Numbered from the stretch's first letter, positions 2,030 to 20,795 are shown. The stretch is DNA of 55,134 nucleotides from an uncultured Rhodobacteraceae bacterium (GCA_965660085.1 CBFHYV010000001.1:1-55134), one strand, 5' to 3'. Made by a program: numbers and translations. The notes: generated by a model from the letters alone, not told the origin.

Positions 2030-2191
2030 GTCCTCCAACTCGGGCGTTGAAGGGAATGTAGCCATCGCGCCGCGCGCTTCCAAACCACAACGGGTCACGA
2101 TGGTGCGCAGGGCTTGAAACATCTGCCACGCAAAACGGCCCCGGCGGATGTGCCGGGGCCGTCGCATCCATGCGCTACAGTGGCTCTGCCG

Positions 2192-4704: not shown

Positions 4705-4742
4705 CGGAACACTCCTCGCGCCGGGCGCGGAAAAACAAGGGG

Positions 4743-5876: not shown

Positions 5877-5928
5877 GTTGCGTTCCTGCTGGGCAAATGG
5901 GTCACGGGCCATGCGTCTGGGCGAAGGC

Positions 5929-7377
5929 TCATTGCGCGGCGATGGACGCGGTCCGCCGCTCATCCGAGGCCGCAAGGGGAAAGACCTTCGCCGGGTTCAG
6001 CAGCCATTTGGGATCAAACACATCCTTCACGGCCATCTGCGCCTCCAGATCGGCGGGGTCGAACTGATCCACCATCAGGTCCCGCTTTTCAATGCCAACC
6101 CCATGTTCGCCGGTCAGACATCCGCCAACCTCCACGCACAGCCGCAGAATGTCGGCGCCCAGCGCCTCGCATTTTTCCAACTCGCCCGGCTGGTTGGCAT
6201 TGAACAGGATCAGCGGGTGCATGTTGCCGTCCCCGGCATGGAACACATTGGCCACGTCCAGGCCGTAGCCCTTGGACATTTCGGAAATCCGCCGCAGCAC
6301 ATAGGGCAGCGAGGACACCGGGATCGTCCCGTCCAGGCACATGTAGTCATTGATCTGGCCCATGGCGCCAAAGGCGCTCTTGCGGCCCAGCCAGATGCGC
6401 CCGGCCTCATCGGCATCGCGGGCCTCGCGCAGCTCAACCGGGTTATGCCGGCGCGCGATCTGCAGGATCAGGCCCAGCTGCTCTGCGATCTCTTCCTCGC
6501 TGCCCTCAACCTCGACGATCAGCAGCGCCTCGCACATCGGATAGCCCGCCTTGGCGAAGGCTTCGGTGGCCTCGATGCAAGGGCGGTCCATGAATTCAAT
6601 GGCCACCGGCAGGACACCGGCCTTGATGATGTCTGACACGCAGGCGCCAGCGACCTCATTGCTGTCAAAGCCGATCAGAACGGGCCGCGCGCCCTCGGGC
6701 TTGCGCAGGATTCGCAGCGTGGCTTCCGTGACCACACCAAGCTGCCCCTCGGATCCGCAGATCAGGCCCAGCAGATCCAGCCCCGCCGCATCCAGATGGG
6801 CACCACCAAGCTCAATGATCTCGCCCTCCATCGTCACCAGCGTGACGCCCATCAGGTTGTTCGTCGTCACCCCGTATTTCAGGCAATGCGCTCCGCCGGA
6901 ATTCATGGCGATATTCCCGGCGATGGCACAGGCCAGCTGGCTGGACGGGTCAGGCGCGTAGAAAAAGTCCTGCTCCTCAACCGCGCCGGTGACGGACAGG
7001 TTGGTGCGCCCCGTCTGCACTCGGACAAAGCGGTTGTCATAATCGGTTTCCAGCACGTCGGTCATCCGCGCCACGCCCAGGATCACGCTGTCCGCCGTGG
7101 GCAGCGCGCCGCCCGCCAGGGATGTGCCCGCACCGCGCGGCACCACCGGCACACCCTCTGCGTGGCAGATGCGCAGCACATCGGCCACCTGTTGCGTCGT
7201 CTCCGGCAAGACGGCGGCCAGCGGCGGGCAACGATAGGCGGTCAGGGCATCGCATTCATAGGCGCGCGTCTCCGCCGGATCGGAAATCACCGCGCCCTCC
7301 GGCAGAACCTGCTGTAGCAGTTCCACGATGCGGGGCTTGCGCCCCAAGACAGACGGGTCGGGCTTGGGCATTTCCAT
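5929..7377 (-). CDS. glcD: Glycolate oxidase subunit GlcD (FAD-linked oxidase)
   Basis: 482-aa FAD-linked oxidase whose N- and C-terminal domains are typical of GlcD. ATG 7377 is preceded by GGAGGA. Confidence 0.9.
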   Translation of the reverse strand: MEMPKPDPSVLGRKPRIVELLQQVLPEGAVISDPAETRAYECDALTAYRCPPLAAVLPETTQQVADVLRICHAEGVPVVPRGAGTSLAGGALPTADSVILGVARMTDVLETDYDNRFVRVQTGRTNLSVTGAVEEQDFFYAPDPSSQLACAIAGNIAMNSGGAHCLKYGVTTNNLMGVTLVTMEGEIIELGGAHLDAAGLDLLGLICGSEGQLGVVTEATLRILRKPEGARPVLIGFDSNEVAGACVSDIIKAGVLPVAIEFMDRPCIEATEAFAKAGYPMCEALLIVEVEGSEEEIAEQLGLILQIARRHNPVELREARDADEAGRIWLGRKSAFGAMGQINDYMCLDGTIPVSSLPYVLRRISEMSKGYGLDVANVFHAGDGNMHPLILFNANQPGELEKCEALGADILRLCVEVGGCLTGEHGVGIEKRDLMVDQFDPADLEAQMAVKDVFDPKWLLNPAKVFPLAASDERRTASIAAQ

Positions 7378-8251: not shown

Positions 8252-11200
8252 TTACGCGATCTCGATGAATCCAGCGAGCTGCGTGAGCGAGATGCCCGAC
8301 TGGCCCTGCAGGGTCAGCGTATCGCCATTGTCGAAGTCCAGCACGAAATCCGCGCCAGACACGCTGCCCAGCTGCGTGACAACCTGACCGGAGGTGAGGC
8401 CAGAGACCCCCAGCGCGGCGCCATCCAACTCGATGATGTCCAGGAACCAATCCTCCACAACATCGGCCCCATCGTTGAACACGAAGGTATCGCGGCTGGT
8501 GCCGCCGCGCAGAGTGTCATCGCCCGCGCCGCCCTCCAGCCGGTCATTGTTGCCGCCGCCGTTGAGGTAATCATTCCCCGCGCCGGCGATCAGGGTATCG
8601 TTCTCCTCACGCCCGAACAGGCGGTTGTCGCCCGTATCGCCATAGAGCAGGTCGGCAAAGGCGCCGCCGGCCAGATCCTCGATGCTGTCATAGCTGTCGC
8701 CCGCAGCCTCGCCCGTGTTCAGGCTGGTGTCGGCAAGGCTCGCCACGATCGCTGTCAGGCTTTCGGAATACTGGGCGCGGTCGCGGTTTTCGCCGCCGAT
8801 CAGCACGTCCTGACCCACACCGCCGAACAGCACGTCATCGCCCACGCCACCTTCCAGCGTGTCATTGCCGCGCCGGCCGAAGATGTAATCAACGTTCGCC
8901 ATGCCCTGGATGCGGTTGTCTTCCAGCGTGCCGCGAAGGTTTTCAAAGCCTTGGGAGCCGATCAGATGTTCGATCCCTTCAAACGTGTCGCCCTGCGCCC
9001 AGAAGGTGTTGATCTGCGGGAACAGCAGATCCACCCGCAGCGACCCGCGCGACCCTTCGTAGGACACGGTGTCGATGCCATCGCCCCCGTTGAAGGCATC
9101 CGCCCCGGCGCCGCCGTTCAGCAGGTCATCGCCCACGCCGCCATCCAGGCTGTCATCGCCATCCTCACCCAGCAGCGAGTCATTGCCCGCGCCCCCAGCC
9201 AGCGTGTCATCGCCGCCAGCAGCCGCCACGAAGTCAGCGCCGTTGCCGCCGGTGATGGAATCCGCGTTGGCGAAGCTTTCCAGGATATCGACAAGATTGT
9301 CCGCATCCGGGCCAAGCGCGATGAAGTTGTCCAGCAGCGTTTCGGCATCGCGCGGCTCGTAGAAGGCATAGGCCTCCACCAGCTCGCCATCCAGGAACAG
9401 CTGCATGGCCGTCACATCGCCCTTCACATCGCCGCCGGTCGCGGGTGTGTTCTTCTCGAAATCCCCGTAGAGCTGGACGAAATAGCCGTTCCCGCTGTTG
9501 GTATCGAAGAAGGAGACGAAGTTCTCATCCGCACGAGAGACCGGGCCGTCCAGCTTGTCGCCCTGCGTGTCCGACATATCCAGCGTGATCGCCTTGTCCT
9601 CGGCGAACTGGCCGAAGGCCCCGGTGAAGTCATCGCCGATCTCGATGGTGCGGGACGCGGTGACCACGCCATCCTGCCCCACAGAGGTGTTGGACGGAGG
9701 CAATGTCAGCGCCCCGACCGTCAGGTTCGGCAGGCTGTAGTCATCGGCTTCGCTGTAATCGACCGTATAGCCAAGATCCTGCAACGCACCGACCGACACG
9801 ATGCTGATGGGCATTGGCGGTTCGGTTTCCGCGAAGGGCGTCATCAGTTCGGTGTCAAACACCTCTTCGGACCAGTGGCCGCTGTCGCTCAGCGGAACGC
9901 TGTTGCCCAGCCCGCCCAGCGCGTTGAAGGCGTTGATGCCGGCCTGGCCGATATAGGTATCGCCCGAGATCAGACCTTCGCGGGCCCAAAGCGTGCCAAT
10001 GCCCAGCACATGGCCCATTTCATGCTCGATCACCTCACCCAGGATGCCGCGTTCGACCATGTATTCCAGGTCGGCCACGTCGAATTCCATCATCCCGGTA
10101 AAGGGCGTGCCATCGGCGCGGATGCGGGTTGGCCCGGCCTGGCCCAGGATGTTGCCCGCGCCGTCAATGTCCACGACCGATGCGGAGATCAGCAGATCAT
10201 CCACCAGCACGCTGGACCGGCCGCTCATGGACAGGTTGACATAGCTGGTATCGGGCAGGTCTTCGGTGATGATGGCCTCCCATGCCGCGGCGGCGTCCTC
10301 GAAATAGGACAGGAAGCGGTCGTCGCCGTTGAAATCCAGCGTGATGTTGAAGCCTTCCTGCGGCGCCGGGGCCTCGGGTTCCGGCTCTGGCTGGTCGGCG
10401 GCTTCGGTGATGGCCAGCTCATAGGTGCCCACGCCGCTGTTATAGGCCCGGGCGGCAATGTAATGCGTGCCATCCTGCGCCGCGACAAAGGACGCGAAGC
10501 TGTTCAGCCCCTCGCCATCGTCATCATCCGTGGTGCCGGCCTGCAAACGGCCATTGGCATCATACACGCCCATCAGGAACGGATCGCGCAGCGACCCATT
10601 GCCCGTCCTGACGCCCAGCACATCGACCTCATATCGGGTGCCCGCCTCAAGCTCGACAGCGAACCAGTCCTCGTCATCGGCCACCTCGATCGCGCCGCCG
10701 GTGATCCCGCCCACGGCGATGCTGCCGGTGGTGGTGGTGTCGGCAGCAAAATCGTCGGCGTTGTCCACGCCTTCAAGCTGGGACACGTTGAGCGTATAGC
10801 TGCCGGTGCCATAGCCAAACGCCGCGGCAGAGATGAAGACTGTTCCAGTTTCTTGCGCGAAATAGGTCGTCAGACTGTTCAGACCCTGCCCGCCGTCATC
10901 GTCAAAACTGTCAGAGATCAGCGTGCCGGTGCTGTCATAAACGCCGCGCATATAGGGATCCACCAGGGTGCCGGCGTCGGTTTCCTCGCCCTCAAGGCTG
11001 ATGGAATAGGCACGGCCCGCCACGACATCCATCGCGAACCAGTCCCTGTCGCCCCCGGTCTCGATCCGGCCAAAGGCCGAGCCATCGATCACCGCAGCGC
11101 CCGTGGTGGTGATGTCATCGGCAAAATCATCCGCCACGACAAAGCCGGTTTCCGTCACGGTGACCTTGTAGGTGCCGGTGTGGTCGGCAAAGGCGCCTGC

Positions 11201-14200
11201 GGCGATATAGTAGGTATCGCTGGCCTCTGCGGTGAACTCCAACCGGCTGTTCAGCCCCTGCCCGCCATCATCATCCAGCGTATCGGCAATCAGGGTGCCG
11301 GTGCTGTCATAGAGGCCGCGCAGGTAGGTATCGCTGAGCGTCCCGGAATTGGTGGCCATGCCTTCCAGATCAATCCGGTAATCAAACCCCGCCACCAGAT
11401 CGACAGCGAACCAATCCGTATCACCCGCGGCTTCGATCTCACCAAACGTGGTGCCATCCACGGCAACCGCGCCGGTTGTTGCCGTGTCGGCGGCAAAGTC
11501 ATCTGTCTGCACAACCTCCGTCACCGTCAGGCTATAGGTGCCGGTTGCGGCGCCAAAGGCGGTGGCCCCTATGAAATAGGTGCCCTGTTCCGACGCGGTG
11601 AAGGTCGCGCGGCTGTTCAGCCCCGCGCCGCCATCATCATCCGCAGCGCCGACAAACAGACCGTTGGTATCATAGACACCGGTCAACAGCGGGTCATGCA
11701 GGCTGCCTTGGCCCGTCGGGTCGCCTTCAAGATCCAGGATCACCGTCTGGCCTGCGGTCAGATCCAGCGCGAACCAGTCTTCGTCATATTCCGTTTCAAT
11801 CACACCCACGGTGGAGGCGCCGACAGAGATGGAGCCCTGGGTGGCAACGGTGTTGTCATAGTCATCCGCGGCCCCGGCCACGGCCTCGACCGTCAGGGTA
11901 TAAGAGCCCGTGTTGGCGCCAAATGCCCCGGCAGAGATGTAATACTGGCCGCCTTCGGTCGGGGTGAAGCTGACAAGGCTGTTGAGGTAATCGCCGCCAT
12001 CGTCATTCTGCGTGTCCGGCAAGAGGATGCCATTGGCATCGAAAATCCCGCGCAGATAAGGATCAACCAGCGTGCCGCCATCGCCGAAAGACCCAACCAG
12101 CGAGATGTCATACTGCACGCCGGCATCCAGGAACACGCCGAACCAGTCACGGTCATTTTCGGCCTCGATCACGCCGGTGACGCTCTGGTTGACGCCCATC
12201 TGCCCGGCAGAGTTCACGGTCTTGCCGTAATCATCGCTCAGCGACACATCGGTGAGGGTCATGGTATAGCTGCCAATACCCGACCCGAAGGCGCCTGCGG
12301 CGAAGTAATGCACGCCGCTTTGCTCGGCCGTGAATTCCAGCAGGCTGTTCAGCCCTTCGCCGCCGTCATCGTCAAATCCGCCGGGCAGTTCAACGCCATT
12401 GGCATCAAACACACCGCGCAGGAACGGGTCAGACAGTGTGCCGCCGCTGGTGGCAGAGCCTTCCAGGTGAATTTCATAGCTGCGGCCCGCCACAAGATCG
12501 GCGCCGAACCAGTCTGTGTCATGGGCTTCTTCAATCTCGCCCGTGGCAAAGCTACCGGCCTCGATCGTGCCTGCGGCCCCGACCGAAGATCCGAAATCAT
12601 CAATGACAGACTGTTCCTCGATCGCAACGGTATAGGTTCCGGTGTTAGACCCAAACGCCCCGGCCGAGATGAAATACAGACCCGAGCTGTCCGCCACAAA
12701 CTCCAGCTGGCTGTTCAGCCCCTGGCCGCCATCGTCATCCAGCGTGCCGGAAATCACCGCGCCGCTGGCATCGAAAATCCCGCGCAGATAGGGATCGCGC
12801 AGTGACCCGGCCCCCGTGCCCGCGCCTTCAAGGTCAATGGTATAGCTGCGGCCGCCTGTCAGGTTGACGGCGAACCAGTCCTCATCGCCCGCGGCCTCGA
12901 TCTCGCCCGTGCTGGAGCTGCCCACGGTCAGCGCCCCGCTGTTGGCGCCGGTCTGGCCGTAATCGTCCTGCACGGCATCCGGCACATCCACCGTCACATC
13001 CCGGACGGACAGCAGATAGGTGCCCGTGCTGCCGCCAAAAGCGCCGGCCTCCAGGTAATGCGTGCCAGAGAAATCGGCCGTGTATTCAAACCGGCTGTTC
13101 AGCCCCAGCCCGCCATCATCATTGGAGGAGTTGGGCAGCAGATCCCCGAAGACGTCATAGATGCCGCGGATGAACGGGTCAGACAGGGTGCCCACGTTTG
13201 TCGGCGCGCCCTGCAGGTCCAGCCGATAGGTGTTGCCGGCGTCGAATTCGATGGCGAACCAGTCGCGGTCGCCGCTCTCCTCGATGTCGCCCCGGGTGAA
13301 GCCGCCGACATTGACGGCACCGGACGACCCGGCGGACTCGCCAAAATCATCCCCGGTGCTTTCGTTGACGATGCTCAGCTCATAGCTGCCGATATTGCCG
13401 CCAAACGCACCGGCAGAGACATAGTGCAGACCGGATTGCTGGGCCGTGAACTGCAATTCACTGTCAAAACCCACGCCGCCGTCATCATCATAGGTGCCAA
13501 AGACCGGCGCGCCATCAAAGGTGAACACACCGTTCAGCAGCGGGTCGCGCAGGGTGCCGGCATCGGTATCCGCGCCGCGCAGACGCAGCGTGTAGACGTC
13601 GCCCTCTGCCAAGGTAACGGCAAACCAGTCGCTGTCGCCGAATTCCTCGATCACGCCGACGACCGCGCCATCCATCGGCAGGATGCCGGTGGTCGTCTCA
13701 TCACCCGCGAAATCGTCCTGGTTCTCTTCCTGGTCCACGGTGATCGTGTAGCTGCCCGTGCCCGAACCGAAGGCTCCGGCGGAGATGTAGACAAGCCCGG
13801 TTTCCTCTGCGGTGAATTCCAGCAGGCTGTTCAGCCCTTCGCCGCTGTCATCGTCCGAAAGACCGGCAATCGGGCTGCCGAAACCGTCAAACAGGCCCCG
13901 GATGAAAGGATCACCCAGCGTGCCGGCACCCGTCTCCGCGCCCTCAAGGGACACGGTATAGGTCGCCCCGGCATCGACGAACAAGGCAAACCAGTCACGG
14001 TCCCCGGCGTCTTCGATGGTGCCAAAGGCGCTGCTGCCGGGGCCGGTGAGGTCAAAGCTGGCCGTCTGCACGGTCTCTCCAAAATCGTCAGGCGAAACGG
14101 GATCCGGCAGGTCAGGCGTCAGATCGGTGATCGACAGCGTATAGCTGCCCGTTGCCCCGCCGAAGGCCCCGGCGGAGATATAGTGCACCCCATCCTCAAC

Positions 14201-16396
14201 AGCGGCAAAGCTGAGCTGACTGTTCAGTCCGAACCCGCCATCATCATTGGCGCTGTTGGGCTGAACCGCCCCGAAGGCGCCGAAGATCCCCCGCAGATAG
14301 GGGTCAGACAGCGTGCCCGCGCTGGTGGGCAGCCCTTCGAGGTCCAGCAGATATTCATGGCCGGCTTCCAGCGTGACGGCAAACCAGTCTTCGTCGCCGG
14401 CAAAATCAATCTCGCCACCGGCGCTGCCATCCATCGTCAGGGTGCCGGTTGTGGTGCTGTTGGCGGCATAGTCGTCCGACCCGGGCGTCGGGCCGAAATC
14501 ACCGGGATCGACAAACACGTTTGCCTGATCCACGCGCAGTTCATAATCGCCGGTATAGGTGCTGAAGGCGCCCGCGGAAATGTAGTAGAACCCGCTCTCG
14601 GTCGGGGTGAATTCCAGCTGGGCCGTCAGCCCCGCGCCGCCATCGTCATTGGCCGTGTTGGGCAACAGCGATCCGCTGGCGTCAAAAATCCCCCGGATGA
14701 AGGGATCAGACAGGGTGTCTTCGCCAAAGCTCGCCGCGCTTTGCGTGATGATATAGGTCGTCCCGGCAATCAGATAGGCTTCGAACCAGTCGCGGTCGCC
14801 GATCTCCTCGATGGAGCCGAAGGCGCCGATGCCCTCGCTGGTGTAGCCCGCCGTGAGTGTGGATTCGCCGAAATCGTCAAAGACATCCGGTGTTTCATCG
14901 ATCAGCTCCAGCGTATAGCTGCCCACCCGCGTGCTGAAGGCACCGGCCGAAATGTAATGCGTGCCAGAGCTTGTCGCGGTGAAGGACATCTCGGCGTTCA
15001 GGCCAAGCCCGCCGTCATCATCCAGCGTGCCCGGCAGGATCTGGCCGGTGCCGTCAAAGACACCGCGAATGTAAGGATCGCTCAGCGATCCGTCAGAGGT
15101 CTGCGAGCCGCGCAGCGATACCGTATAGGTGTGCCCTTCGATCAGGGCCGCGCGGAACCAGTCCTGGTCATCCGCGCGTTCGATGATGCCCGTTGTTACG
15201 CCATCCACGGGCACGGCGCCGGATGTTGCGATGGAGGCCGCGTAGTCATCCGTGGTGGGCAGCGGTTCTGGCGTCGGCTCCGGCGCCGGGGTCTGGTCCG
15301 TCAGCCGCATGGTGTAGGTGCCTGTCCCGGCGCTGAACGCCCCGGCGGAGATATAGTGCGTGCCAGATGTATCGGCGGTGAAGATCACCCGCGCGTTCAG
15401 GCCATCGCCGCTGTCATCATTGCTGGTGCCCGGCAGGATGTTGCCGAACGCGTCATGGATACCGCGCAGATAGGGGTCGCCCAGCGTGCCATCGCCATCA
15501 TGCGACCCGTCGAGTTCCAGCAGGTATTCATGCCCGGCGATCAGCGTTGCGCGGAACCAGTCCTCGTCATAGCTCTCCTCGATCTCGCCGAACGCGGTGC
15601 TGCCGACGGAAATGGTGCCGGTGGTCAGCGTATCCTGGCTGAAATCGTCCAGAACCGGGGCCGGGGTCACATCCACGATGTCCAGCGTGTACGTGCCCGT
15701 ATAGGAGGCATAGCCCCCCGCCGAGATGTAGTAATACCCGTCCTGGTCCGGCACATAGTTCAGATAGGCATCCAGACCCGGACCGCTATCATCATCGGTG
15801 CTGCCGGGCATCAGGGTGCCGTTGGCATTGTAGATGCCGCGCAGATAGGGGTCAGAGATCGTTCCACCGAACGTTTCCGTGCCACGCAGCGAAATATCGT
15901 AGATGCGCCCGCCTTCCAGAAACACGCCAAACCAGTCCTGGTCGCCGCTCTCCTCGATCTCGCCAGAGGCAAAACTGCCGACACTGGCAAACCCGGCGCT
16001 GAAGATGTTGTCGCCGAAATCGTCGGTGTCGGGGGTCAGGTCCGTCACGCTCAGGACATAGCTGCCCGTCCGGGTGCTGAAGGCGCCTGCGGAAATATAA
16101 TATGTGCTGGTCTGATCGGCGGTGAAATACAACAGGCTGTCCAGCCCGGAGCCGCCATCGTCATCCGTTGTGCCTGGCAGCTGTGCGCCGCTGCTGTCAT
16201 GGATGCCACGGATGTAAGGATCGCTCAGGCTCAAGCCCAGAAGCTCGACCTGGTATTGGTGCCCGGCCTCGAAGCTGATCTGAAACCAGTCCCGATCCCC
16301 CGATGTTTCGATCGTGCCGTTGGCGGTTGCCGTGTCGCCAAAAAACGGGGCCGCGCCGGTTGTGCCGAAAATGCTGCTACCAAAATCATCAGGCAT
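8252..16396 (-). CDS. Giant (2,714 aa) secreted multidomain protein: 16 PPC-like repeats, a leishmanolysin-like zinc metalloprotease domain and RTX calcium-binding repeats (probable T1SS substrate)
   Basis: Uninterrupted ORF with GGAG 7 nt upstream of ATG 16396. No N-terminal signal peptide. Domain evidence is given in the sub-features below. Confidence 0.9.
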   Translation of the reverse strand: MPDDFGSSIFGTTGAAPFFGDTATANGTIETSGDRDWFQISFEAGHQYQVELLGLSLSDPYIRGIHDSSGAQLPGTTDDDGGSGLDSLLYFTADQTSTYYISAGAFSTRTGSYVLSVTDLTPDTDDFGDNIFSAGFASVGSFASGEIEESGDQDWFGVFLEGGRIYDISLRGTETFGGTISDPYLRGIYNANGTLMPGSTDDDSGPGLDAYLNYVPDQDGYYYISAGGYASYTGTYTLDIVDVTPAPVLDDFSQDTLTTGTISVGSTAFGEIEESYDEDWFRATLIAGHEYLLELDGSHDGDGTLGDPYLRGIHDAFGNILPGTSNDDSGDGLNARVIFTADTSGTHYISAGAFSAGTGTYTMRLTDQTPAPEPTPEPLPTTDDYAASIATSGAVPVDGVTTGIIERADDQDWFRAALIEGHTYTVSLRGSQTSDGSLSDPYIRGVFDGTGQILPGTLDDDGGLGLNAEMSFTATSSGTHYISAGAFSTRVGSYTLELIDETPDVFDDFGESTLTAGYTSEGIGAFGSIEEIGDRDWFEAYLIAGTTYIITQSAASFGEDTLSDPFIRGIFDASGSLLPNTANDDGGAGLTAQLEFTPTESGFYYISAGAFSTYTGDYELRVDQANVFVDPGDFGPTPGSDDYAANSTTTGTLTMDGSAGGEIDFAGDEDWFAVTLEAGHEYLLDLEGLPTSAGTLSDPYLRGIFGAFGAVQPNSANDDGGFGLNSQLSFAAVEDGVHYISAGAFGGATGSYTLSITDLTPDLPDPVSPDDFGETVQTASFDLTGPGSSAFGTIEDAGDRDWFALFVDAGATYTVSLEGAETGAGTLGDPFIRGLFDGFGSPIAGLSDDDSGEGLNSLLEFTAEETGLVYISAGAFGSGTGSYTITVDQEENQDDFAGDETTTGILPMDGAVVGVIEEFGDSDWFAVTLAEGDVYTLRLRGADTDAGTLRDPLLNGVFTFDGAPVFGTYDDDGGVGFDSELQFTAQQSGLHYVSAGAFGGNIGSYELSIVNESTGDDFGESAGSSGAVNVGGFTRGDIEESGDRDWFAIEFDAGNTYRLDLQGAPTNVGTLSDPFIRGIYDVFGDLLPNSSNDDGGLGLNSRFEYTADFSGTHYLEAGAFGGSTGTYLLSVRDVTVDVPDAVQDDYGQTGANSGALTVGSSSTGEIEAAGDEDWFAVNLTGGRSYTIDLEGAGTGAGSLRDPYLRGIFDASGAVISGTLDDDGGQGLNSQLEFVADSSGLYFISAGAFGSNTGTYTVAIEEQSVIDDFGSSVGAAGTIEAGSFATGEIEEAHDTDWFGADLVAGRSYEIHLEGSATSGGTLSDPFLRGVFDANGVELPGGFDDDGGEGLNSLLEFTAEQSGVHYFAAGAFGSGIGSYTMTLTDVSLSDDYGKTVNSAGQMGVNQSVTGVIEAENDRDWFGVFLDAGVQYDISLVGSFGDGGTLVDPYLRGIFDANGILLPDTQNDDGGDYLNSLVSFTPTEGGQYYISAGAFGANTGSYTLTVEAVAGAADDYDNTVATQGSISVGASTVGVIETEYDEDWFALDLTAGQTVILDLEGDPTGQGSLHDPLLTGVYDTNGLFVGAADDDGGAGLNSRATFTASEQGTYFIGATAFGAATGTYSLTVTEVVQTDDFAADTATTGAVAVDGTTFGEIEAAGDTDWFAVDLVAGFDYRIDLEGMATNSGTLSDTYLRGLYDSTGTLIADTLDDDGGQGLNSRLEFTAEASDTYYIAAGAFADHTGTYKVTVTETGFVVADDFADDITTTGAAVIDGSAFGRIETGGDRDWFAMDVVAGRAYSISLEGEETDAGTLVDPYMRGVYDSTGTLISDSFDDDGGQGLNSLTTYFAQETGTVFISAAAFGYGTGSYTLNVSQLEGVDNADDFAADTTTTGSIAVGGITGGAIEVADDEDWFAVELEAGTRYEVDVLGVRTGNGSLRDPFLMGVYDANGRLQAGTTDDDDGEGLNSFASFVAAQDGTHYIAARAYNSGVGTYELAITEAADQPEPEPEAPAPQEGFNITLDFNGDDRFLSYFEDAAAAWEAIITEDLPDTSYVNLSMSGRSSVLVDDLLISASVVDIDGAGNILGQAGPTRIRADGTPFTGMMEFDVADLEYMVERGILGEVIEHEMGHVLGIGTLWAREGLISGDTYIGQAGINAFNALGGLGNSVPLSDSGHWSEEVFDTELMTPFAETEPPMPISIVSVGALQDLGYTVDYSEADDYSLPNLTVGALTLPPSNTSVGQDGVVTASRTIEIGDDFTGAFGQFAEDKAITLDMSDTQGDKLDGPVSRADENFVSFFDTNSGNGYFVQLYGDFEKNTPATGGDVKGDVTAMQLFLDGELVEAYAFYEPRDAETLLDNFIALGPDADNLVDILESFANADSITGGNGADFVAAAGGDDTLAGGAGNDSLLGEDGDDSLDGGVGDDLLNGGAGADAFNGGDGIDTVSYEGSRGSLRVDLLFPQINTFWAQGDTFEGIEHLIGSQGFENLRGTLEDNRIQGMANVDYIFGRRGNDTLEGGVGDDVLFGGVGQDVLIGGENRDRAQYSESLTAIVASLADTSLNTGEAAGDSYDSIEDLAGGAFADLLYGDTGDNRLFGREENDTLIAGAGNDYLNGGGNNDRLEGGAGDDTLRGGTSRDTFVFNDGADVVEDWFLDIIELDGAALGVSGLTSGQVVTQLGSVSGADFVLDFDNGDTLTLQGQSGISLTQLAGFIEIA
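8474..9254 (-). repeat. RTX nonapeptide (GGxGxDxL) calcium-binding repeat region, three blocks
   Basis: Block 1: GGNGADFVAAAGGDDTLAGGAGNDSLLGEDGDDSLDGGVGDDLLNGGAGADAFNGGDGID. Block 2: GRRGNDTLEGGVGDDVLFGGVGQDVLIGG. Block 3: GDTGDNRLFGREENDTLIAGAGNDYLNGGGNNDRLEGGAGDDTLRGG. These are followed by about 70 aa of acidic, non-repeat C-terminus (8252-8473), typical of a T1SS secretion signal. Confidence 0.85.
9750..10360 (-). other. Zinc metalloprotease domain, leishmanolysin (M8)-like
   Basis: HEMGH is encoded at 10010-10024. About 45 aa downstream lies SDSGHWSEEVFDTELMTPF, which resembles the M8 SHWE...ELM third-ligand/Met-turn region. Confidence 0.55.
10390..16396 (-). repeat. Array of 16 tandem ~125-aa (about 375-nt) PPC-like (pre-peptidase C-terminal type) modules
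   Basis: The D-W-F core occurs 16 times, from GDRDWFQISFEAGHQY at about 16283-16291 to DDEDWFAVELEAGTRY at about 10661-10669, with a mean spacing of about 375 nt. Each unit repeats GEIE..GD.DWF.V.L.AG..Y...L.G......GTLSDP(Y/F)(L/I)RG(I/V)(F/Y)D..G......DDDGG.GLNS.L.F.A...G.(Y/H)(Y/F)ISAGAF....G.Y.L.V. Confidence 0.8.
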
Positions 16397-16443
16397 CGGA
16401 ATGCTCCAGAAAATGAGGGATCATTTCTGAGCCTAGGCCGCAC

Positions 16444-16502
16444 CCTATACGTCTGACAATTTTTTTCTTGAAAGAGGTATCTGAACTATCAATTCGTATA
16501 GG
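16444..16502. promoter_or_regulatory. 8-bp inverted repeat bracketing an AT-rich core upstream of the giant gene
   Basis: CCTATACG (16444-16451) and CGTATAGG (16495-16502) flank 43 nt of AT-rich sequence. The element lies 48-106 nt upstream of the giant gene ATG, so it could be promoter/operator DNA or a 5-prime UTR hairpin. Confidence 0.3.
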
Positions 16503-16584
16503 CGGCGCCGCGCACTTTTCTGCGCGGGCGAACGCCCGCCAAAAACCTGCGGTCAAAACGGCTTGCCGGGCCAGAGCAGGCCTG

Positions 16585-16603
16585 TGCGGCATGACATGCC
16601 GCA
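16585..16603. promoter_or_regulatory. 19-bp perfect palindrome, candidate transcription-factor operator
   Basis: TGCGGCATG-A-CATGCCGCA lies about 190-207 nt upstream of the giant gene start and directly downstream of the response-regulator terminator. Confidence 0.3.
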
Positions 16604-16617
16604 GCGCGGCGCCCAAA

Positions 16618-16644
16618 CGAAAAACGGCAGGCCAAGGGCCTGCC
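16618..16644 (-). terminator. Rho-independent terminator of the response-regulator gene
   Basis: Minus strand reads GGCAGGCC-ctt-GGCCTGCC followed by GTTTTTCG. It begins 30 nt after the stop at 16674. Confidence 0.65.
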
Positions 16645-16673
16645 GATCAAAGCCGACGTGCGAATCCCTGAGG

Positions 16674-17276
16674 TCAGATCAGGCAGCGGTCCCGCGCGAT
16701 CATCGCGGCATGGGTGCGGTTGCGTGCGCCCAGCTTGCGGCTGAGCGTCTTGACATGCAGCTTCACCGTGACCTCCTGCAGGTCGTAATCGCGGGCGATT
16801 TCCTTGTTGGACTTGCCTTCGCAAATGCCTTTCAGCACGTCCAGCTCGCGCTTGGACAGCGGGCCCGTGACGTCCTCTTCGGTTTTCTGCATGAAATCGA
16901 AGGGCGCGTAGATCTCGCCCGCAGCCATGAACCGCGCCGCCGTCAACAAGGATTTTGCACCCAGCGTCTTGGGGATGAACCCCTGCGCCCCGGCCTTGAG
17001 CGCCGCGTCGGCAACCTCGCGTGTGGCAGAGCCGGACAGGATGGCGACGGGACGGTGATTGTTGGCCACCATCATCTGTTCCAGCCCGTCAAGGCCGTTC
17101 ATGCCCGGCATGTGGTAATCCAGAAGAACCAGATCGAAAGAGCCTGTATCCTCCGCCACTTTCACGGCCTCATCCAGCGAAGACACTGTCACGACCTCCG
17201 TGATGTCTTCACCCTTCAGAAAGGCCGCGATCGTGTCGCGGACCAGATCATGGTCGTCTGCCACCAGAATCCGCAT
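16674..17276 (-). CDS. Two-component response regulator, FixJ/NarL (LuxR-type HTH) family
   Basis: MRILVADDHDLVRD..., a phospho-acceptor context LLDYHMPGMNG, and a C-terminal LuxR HTH (LSKRELDVLKGICEGKSNKEIARDYDLQEVTVKLHVKTLSRKLG). Start trimmed from 17453 to ATG 17276. Confidence 0.9.
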   Translation of the reverse strand: MRILVADDHDLVRDTIAAFLKGEDITEVVTVSSLDEAVKVAEDTGSFDLVLLDYHMPGMNGLDGLEQMMVANNHRPVAILSGSATREVADAALKAGAQGFIPKTLGAKSLLTAARFMAAGEIYAPFDFMQKTEEDVTGPLSKRELDVLKGICEGKSNKEIARDYDLQEVTVKLHVKTLSRKLGARNRTHAAMIARDRCLI

Positions 17277-17547
17277 TTCGTCGCCCGTTGTTGCCCACCA
17301 CTTGACGCCGCACCGCAAAACCTTGCCGCACCGTGCCAGAGGCATACTACTTTGGCTTTGAAAGAAGTTGCAACAGGCACTTGCACATAGCCGGACCGGA
17401 CCCAGCGGCACTGCACCTGCCCCGGGCGGACTATACCAAAGAAGTAGCGACATACCTCAAAGGATGGTCCAATAACCACTCGCGCCATGTCAGAGCTGTG
17501 ATACTACTCAAGACAAACGAGTGTTGGTTAAGCGGAGTGTGACGGAC

Positions 17548-18063
17548 ATGATGTCCATGTTGAGCAAATCAATCCGGGCCGGCGTTGTTGCCGCGCTGCT
17601 GTGCGGCGCGTCGGCAGTGGCGGCGCTGGATGCGCCCTCTGGCGCGCCTGTCCTCCGGGTGACGGGGCAGATCACGGAGACCAATTCCGGCGCTGCGGCT
17701 GATCTGGACATCGCCCTGCTGCGGCAGCTTGGGGAAACCACGGTGACCACCAACACCATCTGGACCGAGGGCGAGCAGACCTTCGTCGGCACGCCGCTTG
17801 TTGCACTGGTGCGCGCCCTGGGTGCGTCCGGCGGCACGCTGCGCGCCTCCGCGGTCAACGATTACACCGTTGAAATCCCGGTATCCGATGCGGTGGAGAA
17901 CGGGCCGATCATTGCCTATGAACGCAACGGCCGGCAGATGTCCCTGCGGGACAAGGGGCCGCTGTGGATCATCTATCCCTATGATGACAACCCGGCCTAC
18001 CAGTCCGAAATCTACTATTCCCGCAGCATCTGGCAGATGGACCGGATCGAAGTTGTCCGATGA
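17548..18063 (+). CDS. Periplasmic protein with a sulfite-oxidase/YedY-like molybdopterin-binding-type fold, lacking the Mo-ligand cysteine
   Basis: Has a signal peptide (MMSMLSKSIRAGVVAALLCGASAVAA). The pattern F.G.PL..L....G......L...A.D.Y...IP..D.....P.IAY..NG..M....GPL.IIYP matches the Oxidored_molyb fold seen in MsrP at 1121-2029. The only Cys lies in the signal peptide. Start uncertain (17521, 17548 or 17557). Confidence 0.55.
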   Translation: MMSMLSKSIRAGVVAALLCGASAVAALDAPSGAPVLRVTGQITETNSGAAADLDIALLRQLGETTVTTNTIWTEGEQTFVGTPLVALVRALGASGGTLRASAVNDYTVEIPVSDAVENGPIIAYERNGRQMSLRDKGPLWIIYPYDDNPAYQSEIYYSRSIWQMDRIEVVR

Positions 18064-18129
18064 CATGGTCACCCGGCCGTCACGGGCACCTCGCCCGTGA
18101 CACCGCTGCCTGACACAGGCAGCCTGCGC

Positions 18130-20715
18130 ATGGCGCGGATCCGGCGTGGTATTCTCGCCGCGGGTCTGGCCTGTTTCTTCCTGATCCTGATGGTCTTTGC
18201 CGATGACGTGCGCGAAGGCCTGCAGCGCTATGCCACCGCATCGTCCGACAACGTGCAATGGACCCTCTCTCAGTCCGAGATCGAGGCCCTGCACCTGGCC
18301 CATGCCACCGACAGCGCCGCGCGCTTTGGCGACCCGAGCCTGCAGGAGGTGCGGCGGCACTTCGATATCTTCTATTCCCGCGTCATGACCCTGAGCCAGA
18401 GCGTCAGCTTCGAGGAGCTGCGCGCCAACGCCCAGGTGCAGGGCAATATCGATGAAATGCGCGCCTTCCTGGATCACTATGTTGCCGTGATCGACGGGCC
18501 GGACGAAGACCTGCGCGCCGCCCTGCCCGAAATGGCGCGCGAATCCGCACGCATGCAGCAACTGGTGCGCGCCACCGCCCTGGAAGGGATCCGCATCTTT
18601 TCCCTTCTGGCGGATGCCCGGCGCGATGACATCTCGCAGACGCTTTTGCGGATCGCGGTTTTGACGCTTGTCCTGATCCTCGCGCTTTTGGTGATGGTGG
18701 GCGTGCTGCTGCGGCTGGTTCGGCTGCGCGAACGCAGCGCGCGGGAATACCGCCTGACGCGCGACAGGATGCGCACCATCATCGCAACGTCGCTGGATGC
18801 GGTGATCGTGACGGATCTGTCAGGCCGGGTGATCGAATATAACGGCGCGGCCGAACGGATCTTTGGCTATCGCCGGGACCAAGCGCTGGGCCAGGACATG
18901 GCCAGCCTGATCATCCCCGACGAGATGCGCCCCGCGCATGACGCGGGCATGCACCGGTTCCGCACCACGGGCCATCGCAAGATGCTCAACAGCGGCGTCG
19001 TGCAGCTGGATGCCAAGCGGCAGGATGGCACCACGTTCCCGGTGGATCTGTCGCTGACGGCGGCGCAGACGGCGGATGGCGAAATCCTTGTGGGCTTCAT
19101 CCGCGACATCTCTGACCGGCTGCGCAACGAAGACGCCCTGCGCGCCGCGCGGGACCGCGCCATCGCCGGTGAAAAATCCAAGGCCGAACTGCTTGCGGTG
19201 ATGAGCCATGAGATGCGCACCCCCCTGAACGGGATGCTGGGCACGCTGGAACTGTTTGACCAGGCGGCGCTGGACCCCCGCCACCGCCGGTATCTGCGCA
19301 TCATCCGCAATTCCGGGCGGCTGTTGCTGAACCACGTCAACGACGTTCTGGACATCTCGCGCCTGGATGCAGGCAAGATGAAGATGAACAAGACCCGCTT
19401 TGACCTTGTGGCGCTGTTGCAGGAAATCATCGACGGTCAGGCGGGCCGCGCCCAGACCAATGGCAATGTGCTCACCCTCGCGCCGCTCAACCCGATGCTG
19501 CACGAAGCCTATAGTGACCCCGACCGCCTGCGGCAGGTGCTGCTGAACCTTGTGGGCAATGCCATCAAGTTCACCCAGAACGGGCGCATCACCGTCGAGG
19601 TCGAATGCCACCGCGGCCTGCAGGAGGTGGAGATCCGCGTCATCGATACCGGCGTCGGTATCGATGACGCGGATCTTGACCGGATCTTTGGCGATTTTGT
19701 CACTGTCGATGCCTCCTACCGGCGCAGCACGGGCGGCACCGGGCTTGGGCTGGGCATCGCGCGGCGGCTGACCACGGCCTTGGGCGGCACCCTGGGCGCC
19801 GAGAGCGAGCCGGGAGATGGCAGCGTGTTCTGGCTGCGCCTGCCGCTGGACCCACCCGCCGGCGTCGTGTTCGAGGAGCCTCTGCCCACCATCGTGGAAG
19901 ACACCCCGATCGAGCAAGTGGAACTGCCGCCGCTGCGCGTGCTGATGGTGGAGGACAACGAGGTCAACCGCGTCGTCGCCCGCGAGATGCTGGAACGCGA
20001 CGGCCATGTGGTGCTGGAGGCCCACAACGGCGCCGAAGGCGTCTCTCTGGCGCGCGAAAGCGCCTTCGATGCGATCCTGATGGATGTCTCGATGCCAGAG
20101 ATGGACGGCCTGACCGCCACCCGCTTGATCCGCGACAGCGGCGGCGAATCCGCCGACAGCCCCATCATCGCCACCACCGCCCATGCCATGCCCGACGAGG
20201 TGCGCCGCTTCCGCGAGGCCGGCATGACGGAGGTGCTGATCAAACCGCTGTCGATCAACAGTCTGCGCGCCGCGCTGGCGCTGGCGCTGCTGTCCGACGA
20301 TACAGACGATGACCCGGAGGAGCGCGCCACCATGCCAGACCCCACACCCCAGACCCACGCGCTTGTGGACCGTGACCACCTGGCCGAGGTCATGGAGGAT
20401 CTGCCAAGCGAACAGTTCCAGCGCGTTCTGAAGCAGTTTACCGGAGACACCTGCAAGTTCGTCCGCTCCATGCCCGAACTGGTGGAGCAAGAGGACCGCT
20501 GCCAGGAGCTGTCCGCCGAAGCGCACCGGATGGCAGGCTCTGCCGGGGTGTTCGGCGCCTTCCGGCTGGCCAGCCAGATGCGCCAGATGCAGGACAGCGC
20601 GCTGCACGGCACGATCGAGGAGCGCCGCGCCCTGGCCACGGAGATCCGCGAATGCTGGATTGCCACGCGGCAGGAGCTGGACCGCGACGGGCTGATCACG
20701 CTCAGCACCTCCTGA
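18130..20715 (+). CDS. Hybrid sensor histidine kinase (2 TM + periplasmic domain, PAS, HisKA, HATPase, REC, Hpt)
   Basis: H-box SHEMRTPLNG (His codon 19207-19209), an N box NLVGNAIKFT and G boxes DTGVGI/GGTGLGLGI. The REC Asp sits in ILMDVSMPEMDG (20083-20085). The Hpt His sits in AEAHRMAGSAG (20524-20526). Start is either ATG 18130 or GTG 18097. Confidence 0.9.
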   Translation: MARIRRGILAAGLACFFLILMVFADDVREGLQRYATASSDNVQWTLSQSEIEALHLAHATDSAARFGDPSLQEVRRHFDIFYSRVMTLSQSVSFEELRANAQVQGNIDEMRAFLDHYVAVIDGPDEDLRAALPEMARESARMQQLVRATALEGIRIFSLLADARRDDISQTLLRIAVLTLVLILALLVMVGVLLRLVRLRERSAREYRLTRDRMRTIIATSLDAVIVTDLSGRVIEYNGAAERIFGYRRDQALGQDMASLIIPDEMRPAHDAGMHRFRTTGHRKMLNSGVVQLDAKRQDGTTFPVDLSLTAAQTADGEILVGFIRDISDRLRNEDALRAARDRAIAGEKSKAELLAVMSHEMRTPLNGMLGTLELFDQAALDPRHRRYLRIIRNSGRLLLNHVNDVLDISRLDAGKMKMNKTRFDLVALLQEIIDGQAGRAQTNGNVLTLAPLNPMLHEAYSDPDRLRQVLLNLVGNAIKFTQNGRITVEVECHRGLQEVEIRVIDTGVGIDDADLDRIFGDFVTVDASYRRSTGGTGLGLGIARRLTTALGGTLGAESEPGDGSVFWLRLPLDPPAGVVFEEPLPTIVEDTPIEQVELPPLRVLMVEDNEVNRVVAREMLERDGHVVLEAHNGAEGVSLARESAFDAILMDVSMPEMDGLTATRLIRDSGGESADSPIIATTAHAMPDEVRRFREAGMTEVLIKPLSINSLRAALALALLSDDTDDDPEERATMPDPTPQTHALVDRDHLAEVMEDLPSEQFQRVLKQFTGDTCKFVRSMPELVEQEDRCQELSAEAHRMAGSAGVFGAFRLASQMRQMQDSALHGTIEERRALATEIRECWIATRQELDRDGLITLSTS

Positions 20716-20795
20716 TCCGGCCTCTGTGTGCAAGATGGGGCTGGTCCGGCACCGGGGCTTGGCCTAGCGTTGGCGCAAACAGGCATCCGAGCGTC

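What the first reader, a model, noticed from the sequence alone, without database searches (positions are those of the whole stretch)
16674..20715. Phosphorelay whose sensor partner is a cysteine-free sulfite-oxidase-fold periplasmic protein, adjacent to the giant exoprotein gene
Seen directly: a FixJ/NarL response regulator (16674-17276, minus strand) is divergent from a two-gene unit. The first gene (17548-18063) encodes a 170-aa exported protein whose pattern matches the molybdopterin-binding fold of MsrP in this same window. Its mature part has no cysteine, so it lacks the Mo-ligating Cys (RCVEAW in MsrP aligns with TIWTEG). The second gene is a hybrid kinase with a ~150-aa periplasmic loop, PAS, HisKA/HATPase, REC and Hpt domains. 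Inference: the degenerate oxidoreductase fold may act as a periplasmic ligand-binding co-sensor for the kinase. The regulator lies directly upstream of, and co-oriented with, the giant gene, separated by its own terminator, so the giant protein is a plausible output. The kinase operon is also followed 80 nt later by the SoeABC-like genes, which raises a possible sulfite or sulfur-oxyanion link.
Basis: partly seen in the sequence, partly recalled or inferred. Interest (0 to 1): 0.6.

Follow-up and report, generated by a model that had tools for sequence, protein, structure and literature searches.

The report
PruR-type pterin sensor phosphorelay
The small cysteine-free "sulfite-oxidase-like" protein and the hybrid kinase behind it belong to a published but untested class of periplasmic pterin-sensing systems (PruR-DTB). 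A conserved DNA operator suggests that here the system controls the neighbouring giant secreted protease rather than sulfite metabolism.

Summary
A 171-aa exported protein (17548-18063) has the sulfite-oxidase fold but no Mo-ligating cysteine. A TM-periplasmic-TM-PAS-HisKA-HATPase-REC-Hpt kinase follows it, and a NarL-type regulator with its own terminator lies divergent.

The pair is not new. The small protein matches the crystal structures of the pterin-binding protein PruR (E 1e-36; model TM 0.92-0.94). It keeps Trp in place of Cys and the Asn/Tyr/Trp pterin pocket. The kinase carries the DcpA-type periplasmic domain with its WX7E motif. This is the "PruR-DTB" class of Greenwich et al. 2024, named from genomes only.

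Two points appear in neither of the two papers found that mention PruR-DTB:
- In 80 Rhodobacterales loci the three-gene module is conserved (kinase 74/80, regulator 66/80). It is usually set among exopolysaccharide genes.
- A 16-bp palindrome (CTATCCGAAAGGATAG) sits about 100 nt upstream of pruR in 65/80 loci and upstream of the flanking polysaccharide operons.

In this genome the fourth-best match genome-wide lies 85 nt upstream of the giant RTX protease gene. The giant gene is therefore a plausible output, inferred and not shown. The SoeABC/sulfite link is not supported.

The parts
16674..17276 (-). NarL/FixJ-type response regulator (REC about 16935-17270; GerE HTH about 16695-16862). It is the presumed final acceptor of the phosphorelay.
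   Evidence: Pfam Response_reg E 1.4e-23 and GerE E 1.9e-18. NCBIfam best match is NarL, below cut-off. An orthologue is present in 66 of 80 related loci: directly divergent from pruR in 38, and one to three genes further away (opposite strand in all but one locus) in 28.
16625..16645 (-). Intrinsic terminator of the regulator gene.
   Evidence: 9-bp stem with 8 GC pairs, 3-nt loop and a T-run.
16483..16504 (-). Operator-like palindrome. The core at 16486-16501 reads CTATACGAATTGATAG toward the giant gene, 85 nt upstream of the giant gene start codon (ATG at 16396-16394).
   Evidence: PWM score 19.1, rank 4 in the whole 3.2-Mb genome on both strands. The reversed-genome control gives 2 hits at 19 or more. 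The same position class, within 250 nt beyond the regulator's 3' end, is occupied in 26 related loci.
8252..16396 (-). Giant PPC/RTX exoprotein gene (2714 aa), a candidate regulated target.
Evidence: Pfam PPC x5 and HemolysinCabind x6. The link to the module rests only on the operator at 16483-16504.
17431..17470 (+). Degenerate or split copy of the operator in the divergent promoter. A left half (CTATACCAAAG, 17431-17441) and a right half (AAAGGATGG, 17459-17467) are separated by about 21 extra nt.
   Evidence: Best 16-mers carry 5-6 mismatches. PWM score 13.1 at 17449-17470, genome rank 14. In 65 of 80 relatives an intact site lies 50-160 nt upstream of pruR.
17548..18063 (+). pruR homologue: exported 171-aa pterin-binding-type protein with a degenerate SUOX fold. 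The signal covers about residues 1-25. Key residues are W72 (17761-17763), N104 (17857-17859), Y106 (17863-17865) and W162 (18031-18033).
   Evidence: phmmer against PDB: 7rkb E 1.2e-36, 7kos/7kou E 2.5e-34. Foldseek TMt 0.92-0.94, rmsd 1.2-1.4 A. W72, N104, Y106 and W162 are invariant in 24 homologues.
18130..20715 (+). DTB-type hybrid histidine kinase (an alternative GTG start lies at 18097). Segments: TM1 about 18151-18201; periplasmic four-helix domain about 18202-18642 with WX7E at 18259-18285; TM2 about 18643-18711; PAS 18766-19110; HisKA 19180-19374; HATPase 19516-19851; REC 19939-20277; Hpt 20425-20667.
   Evidence: Pfam. TorS model TIGR02956 scores 371 bits over residues 349-862, below its cut-off. 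The N-terminal profile against GGDEF-linked partners gives hhalign probability 97.9% and E 6.6e-13. W is 97% and E 92% conserved. Model pLDDT 93, all-alpha.

Best explanation
This is a PruR-DTB signalling module.

Shown by sequence and structure comparison:
- The small protein is a secreted PruR-type protein, a truncated sulfite-oxidase fold. Trp replaces the Mo-binding Cys, and the Asn/Tyr/Trp residues that sandwich a small pterin ring in the solved PruR structures are kept.
- The next gene encodes a hybrid kinase whose periplasmic helical domain is homologous to that of DcpA, the protein PruR binds in Agrobacterium. It includes the WX7E signature.

Inferred mechanism:
- Periplasmic PruR, loaded with a reduced pterin (monapterin or neopterin type), docks on the kinase's periplasmic bundle and shifts its kinase/phosphatase balance.
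- Phosphate then passes His (HisKA) to Asp (REC) to His (Hpt) to Asp of the divergent NarL-type regulator.
- The regulator dimer binds the palindrome CTATCCGAAAGGATAG.

Inferred output:
- In relatives the palindrome marks the pruR promoter and the adjacent exopolysaccharide operons.
- In this genome an intact copy sits 85 nt upstream of the giant RTX/PPC protease gene, and further matches lie in a polysaccharide cluster on another contig.
- The likely output is therefore secreted or surface matrix material. This parallels pterin control of adhesion in Agrobacterium, but runs through phosphorelay and transcription instead of c-di-GMP.
For: Identity of PruR:
- PDB sequence hits 7rkb E 1.2e-36 and 7kos/7kou E 2.5e-34.
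- The model superposes on them at TM 0.92-0.94.
- W72, N104, Y106 and W162 are invariant and align with A. tumefaciens W70, N102, Y104 and W160 as described in PMC11194511.

Identity of the partner:
- WX7E is present and conserved.
- hhalign to the N-termini of GGDEF-type partners gives probability 97.9%.
- In a phylum-wide sample, 28 of 29 PruR loci examined have a downstream ORF of 340 or more residues starting within 140 nt of the pruR stop. Twenty of these show a histidine-kinase H-box, 7 a GGDEF motif and 2 neither within the stretch held.

Published class: PMC11194511 and PMC13259868.

Module conservation: kinase in 74 of 80 loci, regulator in 66 of 80.

Operator:
- Found in 65 of 80 loci at -50 to -160 from pruR, including 37 of 52 loci not used to build the matrix.
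- Further copies lie upstream of the WecG/Bac_transf gene, a conserved 485-aa gene of no Pfam family, the Poly_export/Wzx gene pair and pyruvyl-transferase operons.
- The window copy scores 19.1, genome rank 4.
- The motif at 2 or fewer mismatches occurs 13 times in 5 family genomes with PruR, and once in 5 genomes without a close PruR.
Against: - No ligand, binding or expression data exist for any kinase-linked PruR. Pterin binding here is extrapolated from homologues of 41-44% identity.
- The PW motif of most PruR proteins is IW in this clade.
- That the NarL-type regulator is the protein binding the palindrome is inferred only from co-location.
- About 2 chance hits at 19 or more are expected genome-wide, so the giant-gene site could be chance or a relic of an earlier neighbour.
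- The four nearest homologues of the giant gene that were examined have neither the module nor the site within the flanks held; for one of them (G374) the contig ends inside the gene, so its upstream side was not examined.
- The pruR-proximal operator in this genome is degenerate.
- A dedicated pteridine reductase (PruA) could not be identified.
Confidence: 0.72

Rival explanations
1. The module is a PruR-DTB system, but the giant gene is not its target. The palindrome upstream of it is a chance match or a relic of a displaced polysaccharide operon. The regulator acts only on its own operon or on loci elsewhere, such as the polysaccharide cluster on contig C25.
For: - The giant gene is not a conserved neighbour.
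- Its homologues in four other genomes have neither the module nor a site at 11 or more within the flanks held.
- The reversed-genome control yields 2 hits at 19 or more.
- The best genome hit (29.2) lies on C25, next to polysaccharide genes.
Against: - The chance of a hit at 19 or more falling in this particular 277-nt gap is about 2-4 in 10,000.
- The site lies 85 nt from the start codon; the gene after the regulator in the scanned loci has its site 37-110 nt upstream.
- It reads in the orientation that most pruR-proximal sites take toward pruR.
- 26 relatives carry a site in the same place, just beyond the regulator gene.
Confidence: 0.3
2. The small protein is a co-sensor of PruR architecture, but its ligand in this marine clade is not a pterin. 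It could be another planar heterocycle or redox-active metabolite, or the protein could act without a ligand.
For: - The PW motif is IW here.
- The review notes that pocket substitutions between PruR groups may alter specificity (PMC13259868).
- No PruA-type reductase was identified above cut-off.
Against: The three residues that contact the pteridine ring in the co-crystal structures are invariant across 24 homologues. The modelled fold is within 1.2-1.4 A of pterin-binding structures.
Confidence: 0.15
3. The small protein is a minimal but active molybdoenzyme or sulfite-related protein, functionally tied to the downstream SoeABC-like genes. Its adjacency to the kinase is incidental.
For: There is a sub-threshold PF00174 match. 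SoeABC-like genes start 80 nt after the kinase.
Against: - There is no Cys in the mature protein.
- The best relatives are non-enzymatic pterin-binding proteins with a truncated cofactor cleft.
- A kinase follows pruR in 74 of 80 loci, while SoeABC-like genes do so in none.
- No operator lies upstream of soeA.
Confidence: 0.03

Closest known systems
PruR-DTB systems (Greenwich et al. 2024, PNAS, PMC11194511; review PMC13259868, with Ruegeria pomeroyi WP_011045932.1 as the example)
   Same: - The secreted PruR homologue lies immediately upstream of a two-TM protein.
- That protein has a DcpA-type periplasmic domain with WX7E.
- Its cytoplasmic part is TorS-like, with PAS, HisKA, HATPase and REC.
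- A response-regulator gene is nearby.
- The host is an alphaproteobacterium of the Roseobacter group.
   Different: Nothing structural differs. The window kinase also carries Hpt. The class has been defined only by genome mining, with its outputs stated as unknown. The operator and the polysaccharide or exoprotein neighbourhood reported here appear in neither of the two papers found that mention the class.
PruR-DcpA of Agrobacterium tumefaciens (Feirer 2015, PMC4488946; Greenwich 2024)
   Same: - The PruR fold and pocket residues match (41-44% identity over the Foldseek alignments).
- The partner's periplasmic domain is homologous (hhalign 97.9%).
- The operon order is the same.
- The biological theme is control of surface or matrix material.
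   Different: The output domain is GGDEF-EAL (c-di-GMP) in DcpA. Here it is a four-step His-Asp-His-Asp phosphorelay to a DNA-binding regulator.
TorT-TorS of E. coli
   Same: A periplasmic ligand-binding protein controls a hybrid kinase with an all-helical periplasmic sensor. The cytoplasmic part of the window kinase is most similar to TorS.
   Different: TorT is a periplasmic-binding-protein fold that binds TMAO, not a SUOX fold. The TorS match covers only residues 349-862, and the periplasmic domains are not detectably related by the searches done.
SUOX-family molybdoenzymes (sulfite oxidase, SorT, YedY/MsrP)
   Same: They share the core beta-rich Moco-domain fold (Foldseek E 1e-6 to 1e-4).
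   Different: - The Mo-ligating Cys is absent.
- The cleft hairpin is truncated, as described for PruR.
- There is no dimerisation or haem domain.
- The protein scores below Pfam's gathering threshold.

Membership tests
PruR (periplasmic pterin-binding protein, degenerate SUOX fold) | [quoted passage not shown] | tested here: met
   171 aa. A hydrophobic N-terminus ends in AVA/AL, and the model shows a helix at residues 4-18 ahead of the domain. No dedicated signal-peptide predictor was available.
PruR (periplasmic pterin-binding protein, degenerate SUOX fold) | Fold of the solved PruR structures (7kou, 7kos, 7rkb, 7kp2, 7kom) | tested here: met
   phmmer E 1.2e-36 to 1.4e-19. Foldseek TMt 0.85-0.94, rmsd 1.2-2.6 A.
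PruR (periplasmic pterin-binding protein, degenerate SUOX fold) | Mo-ligating Cys of SUOX enzymes replaced by Trp | tested here: met
   W72 aligns with the Trp of TTPW in 7kos and 7rkb and is invariant in 24 homologues. The mature protein has no Cys.
PruR (periplasmic pterin-binding protein, degenerate SUOX fold) | [quoted passage not shown] | tested here: not met
   Here, and in 20 of the 24 aligned Rhodobacterales homologues, the motif is I-W (V-W in two more); only one has P-W. The paper describes the motif as common, not universal.
PruR (periplasmic pterin-binding protein, degenerate SUOX fold) | Pterin-contacting Asn, Tyr and Trp (A. tumefaciens N102, Y104, W160) | tested here: met
   N104, Y106 and W162 are invariant and align to the NDY and WQ motifs of the crystal sequences.
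PruR (periplasmic pterin-binding protein, degenerate SUOX fold) | Binds reduced non-Moco pterins | not testable with these tools
   This needs purified protein.
DTB partner (DcpA-type periplasmic domain plus TorS/BaeS-like kinase) | Two TM helices flanking a periplasmic loop of about 138-150 aa, encoded immediately downstream of pruR | tested here: met
   About 147 residues lie between the hydrophobic helices. The gap from the pruR stop is 33-66 nt.
DTB partner (DcpA-type periplasmic domain plus TorS/BaeS-like kinase) | WX7E motif near the start of the periplasmic domain | tested here: met
   The motif reads W-TLSQSEI-E (W55/E63 counted from the GTG start). W is 97% and E 92% conserved in 72 sequences. 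W is invariant in alignment A2.
DTB partner (DcpA-type periplasmic domain plus TorS/BaeS-like kinase) | Periplasmic domain homologous to that of GGDEF/EAL-type DcpA proteins | tested here: met
   hhalign of a 72-sequence kinase N-terminal profile against 6 GGDEF-linked partners gives probability 97.9% and E 6.6e-13 over columns 8-116, including the W...E motif. A. tumefaciens DcpA itself was not in hand.
DTB partner (DcpA-type periplasmic domain plus TorS/BaeS-like kinase) | Cytoplasmic two-component kinase most like TorS/BaeS, often with PAS and/or REC | tested here: met
   PAS, HisKA, HATPase_c, REC and Hpt are present. The best NCBIfam model is TorS, at 371 bits below its 676-bit cut-off, so this shows similarity and not TorS orthology.
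SUOX-family molybdoenzyme (Pfam PF00174) | Passes the Pfam gathering threshold | tested here: not met
   20.2 bits against a cut-off of 24.
SUOX-family molybdoenzyme (Pfam PF00174) | Conserved Cys ligand to Mo | tested here: not met
   Trp occupies that position and the mature protein has no Cys.
TorT/TorS TMAO sensor | TorS equivalog score, and a TorT-type periplasmic binding protein as partner | tested here: not met
   The TorS models score below cut-off and cover only the cytoplasmic part. The partner has a SUOX fold, not a periplasmic-binding-protein fold.

The most novel reading that the evidence does not exclude
In the Roseobacter group, PruR-DTB modules are pterin-responsive transcriptional switches for extracellular matrix production. 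They act through a dedicated NarL-type regulator that binds a conserved CTATCCGAAAGGATAG operator. In this uncultured plankton bacterium the switch has been rewired from exopolysaccharide operons to a 282-kDa secreted RTX protease. This would give the first defined output and cis-element for the kinase branch of pterin signalling.
Probability: 0.4. Interest if true: 0.55.

Novelty: new member of a known kind. Interest (0 to 1): 0.4.

Why it matters
Pterin signalling through PruR has been worked out only for the c-di-GMP branch in Agrobacterium. The kinase branch makes up roughly a quarter of more than 5,500 known pairs, yet it has no known output.

The window adds no new kind of system. The comparative work around it does yield a testable regulon model for marine Rhodobacterales:
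- a specific 16-bp operator;
- a specific regulator;
- exopolysaccharide or exoprotein targets.

Cultivable relatives such as Ruegeria, Sulfitobacter and Thetidibacter could be used to test this model. It also corrects a tempting but wrong reading of these genes as sulfite- or molybdenum-related. NCBI still names them 'molybdopterin-dependent oxidoreductase'.

Tried and rejected
- Sulfite/SoeABC link: rejected. The genes are not co-located in 80 related loci, and no operator lies upstream of soeA.
- Active molybdoenzyme: rejected.
- Complex prediction of mature PruR with the kinase periplasmic domain: 'weak support'. The score was 0.52 against a best control of 0.00. Runs agreed in at least 87% of contacts, and the partner pLDDT was at least 91. 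The tool states that passes at 0.60 or under were reached by only 7 of 80 solved complexes and by both mismatched pairs that passed, so such a pass is 'more often wrong than right unless the guess was likely beforehand'. No interface was given. This is not used as evidence.
- Expression data: no RNA holder was listed. The only holder is a marine plankton metagenome that may be the source of this DNA.
- Search for a PruA-type pteridine reductase with NF006598: 25 SDR matches, none over the cut-off, and the family did not pass its cut-off in any control genome either. The result is inconclusive.
- Foldseek of the kinase N-terminal model: only weak matches to four-helix sensor domains (NarQ, Adeh_2942, QseE, Tar; E of 0.03 or more). 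It is a generic helical bundle with no specific relative.
- Consensus sigma-70 promoter scan of 16300-20900: nothing found.
- Looking for a GGDEF-linked partner on plasmids: Agrobacterium, Shinella and Vibrio records all turned out to be kinase-type. GGDEF-type partners were obtained from the phylum sample instead.
- A. tumefaciens DcpA and R. pomeroyi WP_011045932.1 were not available by reference and were not compared directly.

Full report
**What is there**

The finding spans three genes. All three are real open reading frames at the stated coordinates.

- The regulator at 16674-17276 (minus strand) has a receiver domain and a GerE-type helix-turn-helix. It is closest to NarL models.
- A textbook hairpin-plus-T-run follows the regulator at 16645-16625. 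The regulator is therefore transcriptionally separate from the giant gene at 8252-16396.
- Divergent from the regulator, the 171-aa product of 17548-18063 has a hydrophobic N-terminal signal. It has no cysteine after that signal.
- After a gap of 33-66 nt comes an 861- or 872-aa kinase. It has two transmembrane helices around about 147 periplasmic residues, then PAS, HisKA, HATPase_c, REC and Hpt.

**The fold claim**

Pfam's Oxidored_molyb model matches the small protein only below threshold (20.2 against 24 bits). A direct BLASTP against the window's own MsrP (1121-2050, minus strand) is not significant (E 0.74).

The fold is nevertheless confirmed. An AlphaFold model built on 24 homologues has pLDDT 89.8. 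By Foldseek it matches sulfite dehydrogenase SorT, plant and chicken sulfite oxidase, SoxCD and YedY at E 1e-6 to 1e-4. Those are only the second tier of matches.

**What it really is**

The top matches, by sequence and by structure, are the crystal structures deposited as 'pterin binding protein PruR'.

- 7rkb from Klebsiella: E 1.2e-36.
- 7kos/7kou from Agrobacterium: E 2.5e-34, TM 0.92-0.94, rmsd 1.2-1.4 A.
- 7kp2 and 7kom from Vibrio.

Greenwich et al. 2024 (PMC11194511) showed several things about PruR:

- It is periplasmic.
- It binds reduced monapterin-type pterins in a shortened version of the Moco cleft.
- It has Trp where SUOX enzymes have the Mo-ligating Cys.
- It sandwiches the pteridine ring between a Tyr and a Trp, with an Asn hydrogen bond.
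- It controls the diguanylate cyclase-phosphodiesterase DcpA through DcpA's periplasmic domain, which carries an invariant WX7E motif.

The same paper mined more than 5,500 pruR-partner pairs. In 23-29% of them the partner has the DcpA-type periplasmic domain fused to a TorS/BaeS-like histidine kinase. These pairs were named PruR-DTB. They are often near a response-regulator gene, and their outputs are unknown. A 2026 review uses a Ruegeria pomeroyi protein as the DTB example (PMC13259868).

**Membership, tested**

In the window protein the four signature residues are W72, N104, Y106 and W162. They align with the crystal sequences and are invariant in 24 homologues. One soft feature differs: Pro-Trp is Ile-Trp in this clade.

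In the kinase the motif reads W-TLSQSEI-E. Across 72 Rhodobacterales partners W is 97% and E 92% conserved.

To test homology with c-di-GMP-type partners, I sampled 301 genomes of the phylum. Thirty carry a PruR homologue.

- In 28 of the 29 loci examined the gene is followed within 140 nt by an ORF of 340 or more residues.
- Twenty of these show a histidine-kinase H-box, 7 a GGDEF motif, and 2 neither within the stretch held. The 29th (L117) showed only a short 129-residue ORF.
- Twenty-two of the 29 have WX7E within the first 120 residues.

A profile of the kinase N-termini aligns to a profile of six GGDEF-linked N-termini with hhalign probability 97.9% and E 6.6e-13, across the W...E region.

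The N-terminal model is a confident all-helical bundle (pLDDT 93). It has only weak resemblance to other four-helix sensor domains.

The pair is therefore a PruR-DTB system. It is not a SUOX enzyme and not a TorT/TorS system.

**Context survey**

I fetched 80 loci encoding close PruR homologues from Rhodobacterales genomes, with 10 kb on each side.

- A homologue of the window kinase lies directly downstream in 74.
- The NarL-type regulator is present in 66. It is directly divergent in 38, and one to three genes further away (on the opposite strand in all but one locus) in 28.
- Neither the giant protein nor SoeABC is a conserved neighbour. The giant protein gave only C-terminal RTX-repeat matches, in seven loci. 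Only one locus (L006) showed weak SoeA- and SoeB-like matches (24% and 42% identity), about 6-9 kb away on the opposite strand.

The recurrent neighbours are polysaccharide genes:

| Neighbour | Loci |
|---|---|
| WecG/TagA-Bac_transf fusion, between the regulator and pruR | 25 |
| Wza-like exporter | 21 |
| GT2 glycosyltransferase | 22 |
| GT4 glycosyltransferase | 19 |
| Nucleotidyl transferase | 14 |
| Wzx flippase | 12 |

A second locus type places a pyruvyl-transferase/Wzx/acyltransferase/GT2/GT4 operon right after the regulator. An annotated example is a Sulfitobacter faviae plasmid.

**A conserved operator**

The regulator-pruR intergenic regions share a 16-bp palindrome, CTATCCGAAAGGATAG. 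It has 3 or fewer mismatches in 28 of 38 directly divergent loci, 75-140 nt upstream of pruR.

A 22-nt weight matrix built from those 28 sites gives the following:

- It finds a site at the same place in 65 of 80 loci. This includes 37 of 52 loci not used for training.
- It finds further sites upstream of the flanking polysaccharide operons.
- In 26 loci a site lies within 250 nt beyond the regulator's 3' end. That places it in front of the next gene co-oriented with the regulator.

In a small comparison, the motif at 2 or fewer mismatches occurs 13 times in five family genomes with the module. It occurs once in five genomes without a close PruR. Related genomes are not independent, so this is supportive only.

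**The window's own sites**

I scanned the whole 3.2-Mb assembly on both strands. This gives nine hits at 15 or more and four at 19 or more. A reversed-sequence control gives six and two.

- Rank four (19.1) is at 16483-16504. Its core reads CTATACGAATTGATAG toward the giant gene, 85 nt upstream of its ATG and 170 nt past the regulator's stop.
- The chance that a hit this strong falls in that 277-nt gap is about 2-4 in 10,000.
- The copy upstream of pruR is degenerate (13.1). It looks like a palindrome split by about 21 extra bases (17431-17467).
- The best genome hit (29.2) and another (13.6) lie on contig C25. That contig carries a polysaccharide cluster with ABC-2 transporter, glycosyltransferase, sulfotransferase, UDP-glucose dehydrogenase, ManC and beta-helix genes.

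Against a deep link, the nearest homologues of the giant gene in four other genomes have no module and no site within the flanks held; for one of them (G374) the contig ends inside the gene, so its upstream side was not examined. The association is specific to this genome and may be recent.

**Mechanism, and how sure**

- Shown by comparison: the identities of PruR and of the DTB kinase, the complete His-Asp-His-Asp domain set, the conserved three-gene module, and the conserved palindrome with its placement.
- Inferred from the Agrobacterium work: pterin binding, and docking on the periplasmic bundle.
- Inferred from co-location only: that the NarL-type regulator binds the palindrome, and that the giant protease gene is controlled through the 16486-16501 site.

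No expression data exist. The assembly appears to come from a marine plankton metagenome.

**Verdict**

The system is already described as a class, so this is a new member of a known kind.

- The sulfite reading should be dropped.
- The giant-gene output is plausible on new operator evidence, but unproven.
- The operator and the polysaccharide association are the useful new leads. Neither appears in the two papers found that mention PruR-DTB.

Noticed in passing
L083:6033-8342 (own genome, contig C107), with the neighbouring gene at L083:8440-9537(-): The genome holds a second, more divergent PruR-like gene (153 aa; PF00174 28 bits). It has Tyr instead of Trp at the former Cys position but keeps the NDY and WQ motifs. 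A TM-periplasmic-TM-HisKA-HATPase-REC kinase without an obvious WX7E follows it. Next to it lies a Wzc-like (GNVR/AAA_31) polysaccharide co-polymerase gene.
   Followed up: partly
L028:10514-12652, L031:4912-7064, L038:10604-12088: In at least 3 of the 80 Rhodobacterales loci the close PruR homologue is followed by a SelO (protein adenylyltransferase) gene and, in two of them, an HTH-cupin regulator, not a kinase. This partner type is not mentioned in the parts of the PruR papers that were read.
   Followed up: partly
window 17431-17467: The operator upstream of pruR looks split. An intact left half (CTATACCAAAG) and right half (AAAGGATGG) are separated by about 21 nt that end in a repeat of CAAAG, as if a short duplication or insertion had disrupted the palindrome.
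   Followed up: partly
Own genome contig C25 (L118, L124): sites at C25:2621 and C25:9096: The best genome-wide operator match (29.2) and a weaker one (13.6) lie in a polysaccharide cluster. The cluster holds an ABC-2 transporter, an ABC ATPase, a GT2+GT1 fusion, a sulfotransferase, UDP-glucose dehydrogenase, GT2, ManC and a beta-helix protein. Its genes resemble those flanking the module in L029, L036 and L047.
   Followed up: partly
L084 (A. tumefaciens plasmid pAtFPH-AT4a) 3929-7787; L087 (Shinella) 3351-7268: In Rhizobiaceae replicons, a REC-HD (HD_5, HD-GYP-like) gene immediately follows the PruR-DTB pair. This suggests that some kinase-type systems feed back into cyclic-nucleotide turnover.
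   Followed up: no
Plasmid collection: [quoted passage not shown] They are mostly Klebsiella, Escherichia and Salmonella plasmids (391 predicted conjugative), at 32-40% identity over the C-terminal half.
   Followed up: no
L016:7566-8786(-): In Paracoccus homiensis the gene after the regulator encodes a REC-SpoIIE (PP2C phosphatase) protein, not polysaccharide genes.
   Followed up: no
window 20716-20795: No terminator-like hairpin with a T-run was found between the kinase stop and the SoeA-like start. Read-through into the SoeABC-like genes cannot be excluded from sequence alone.
   Followed up: partly
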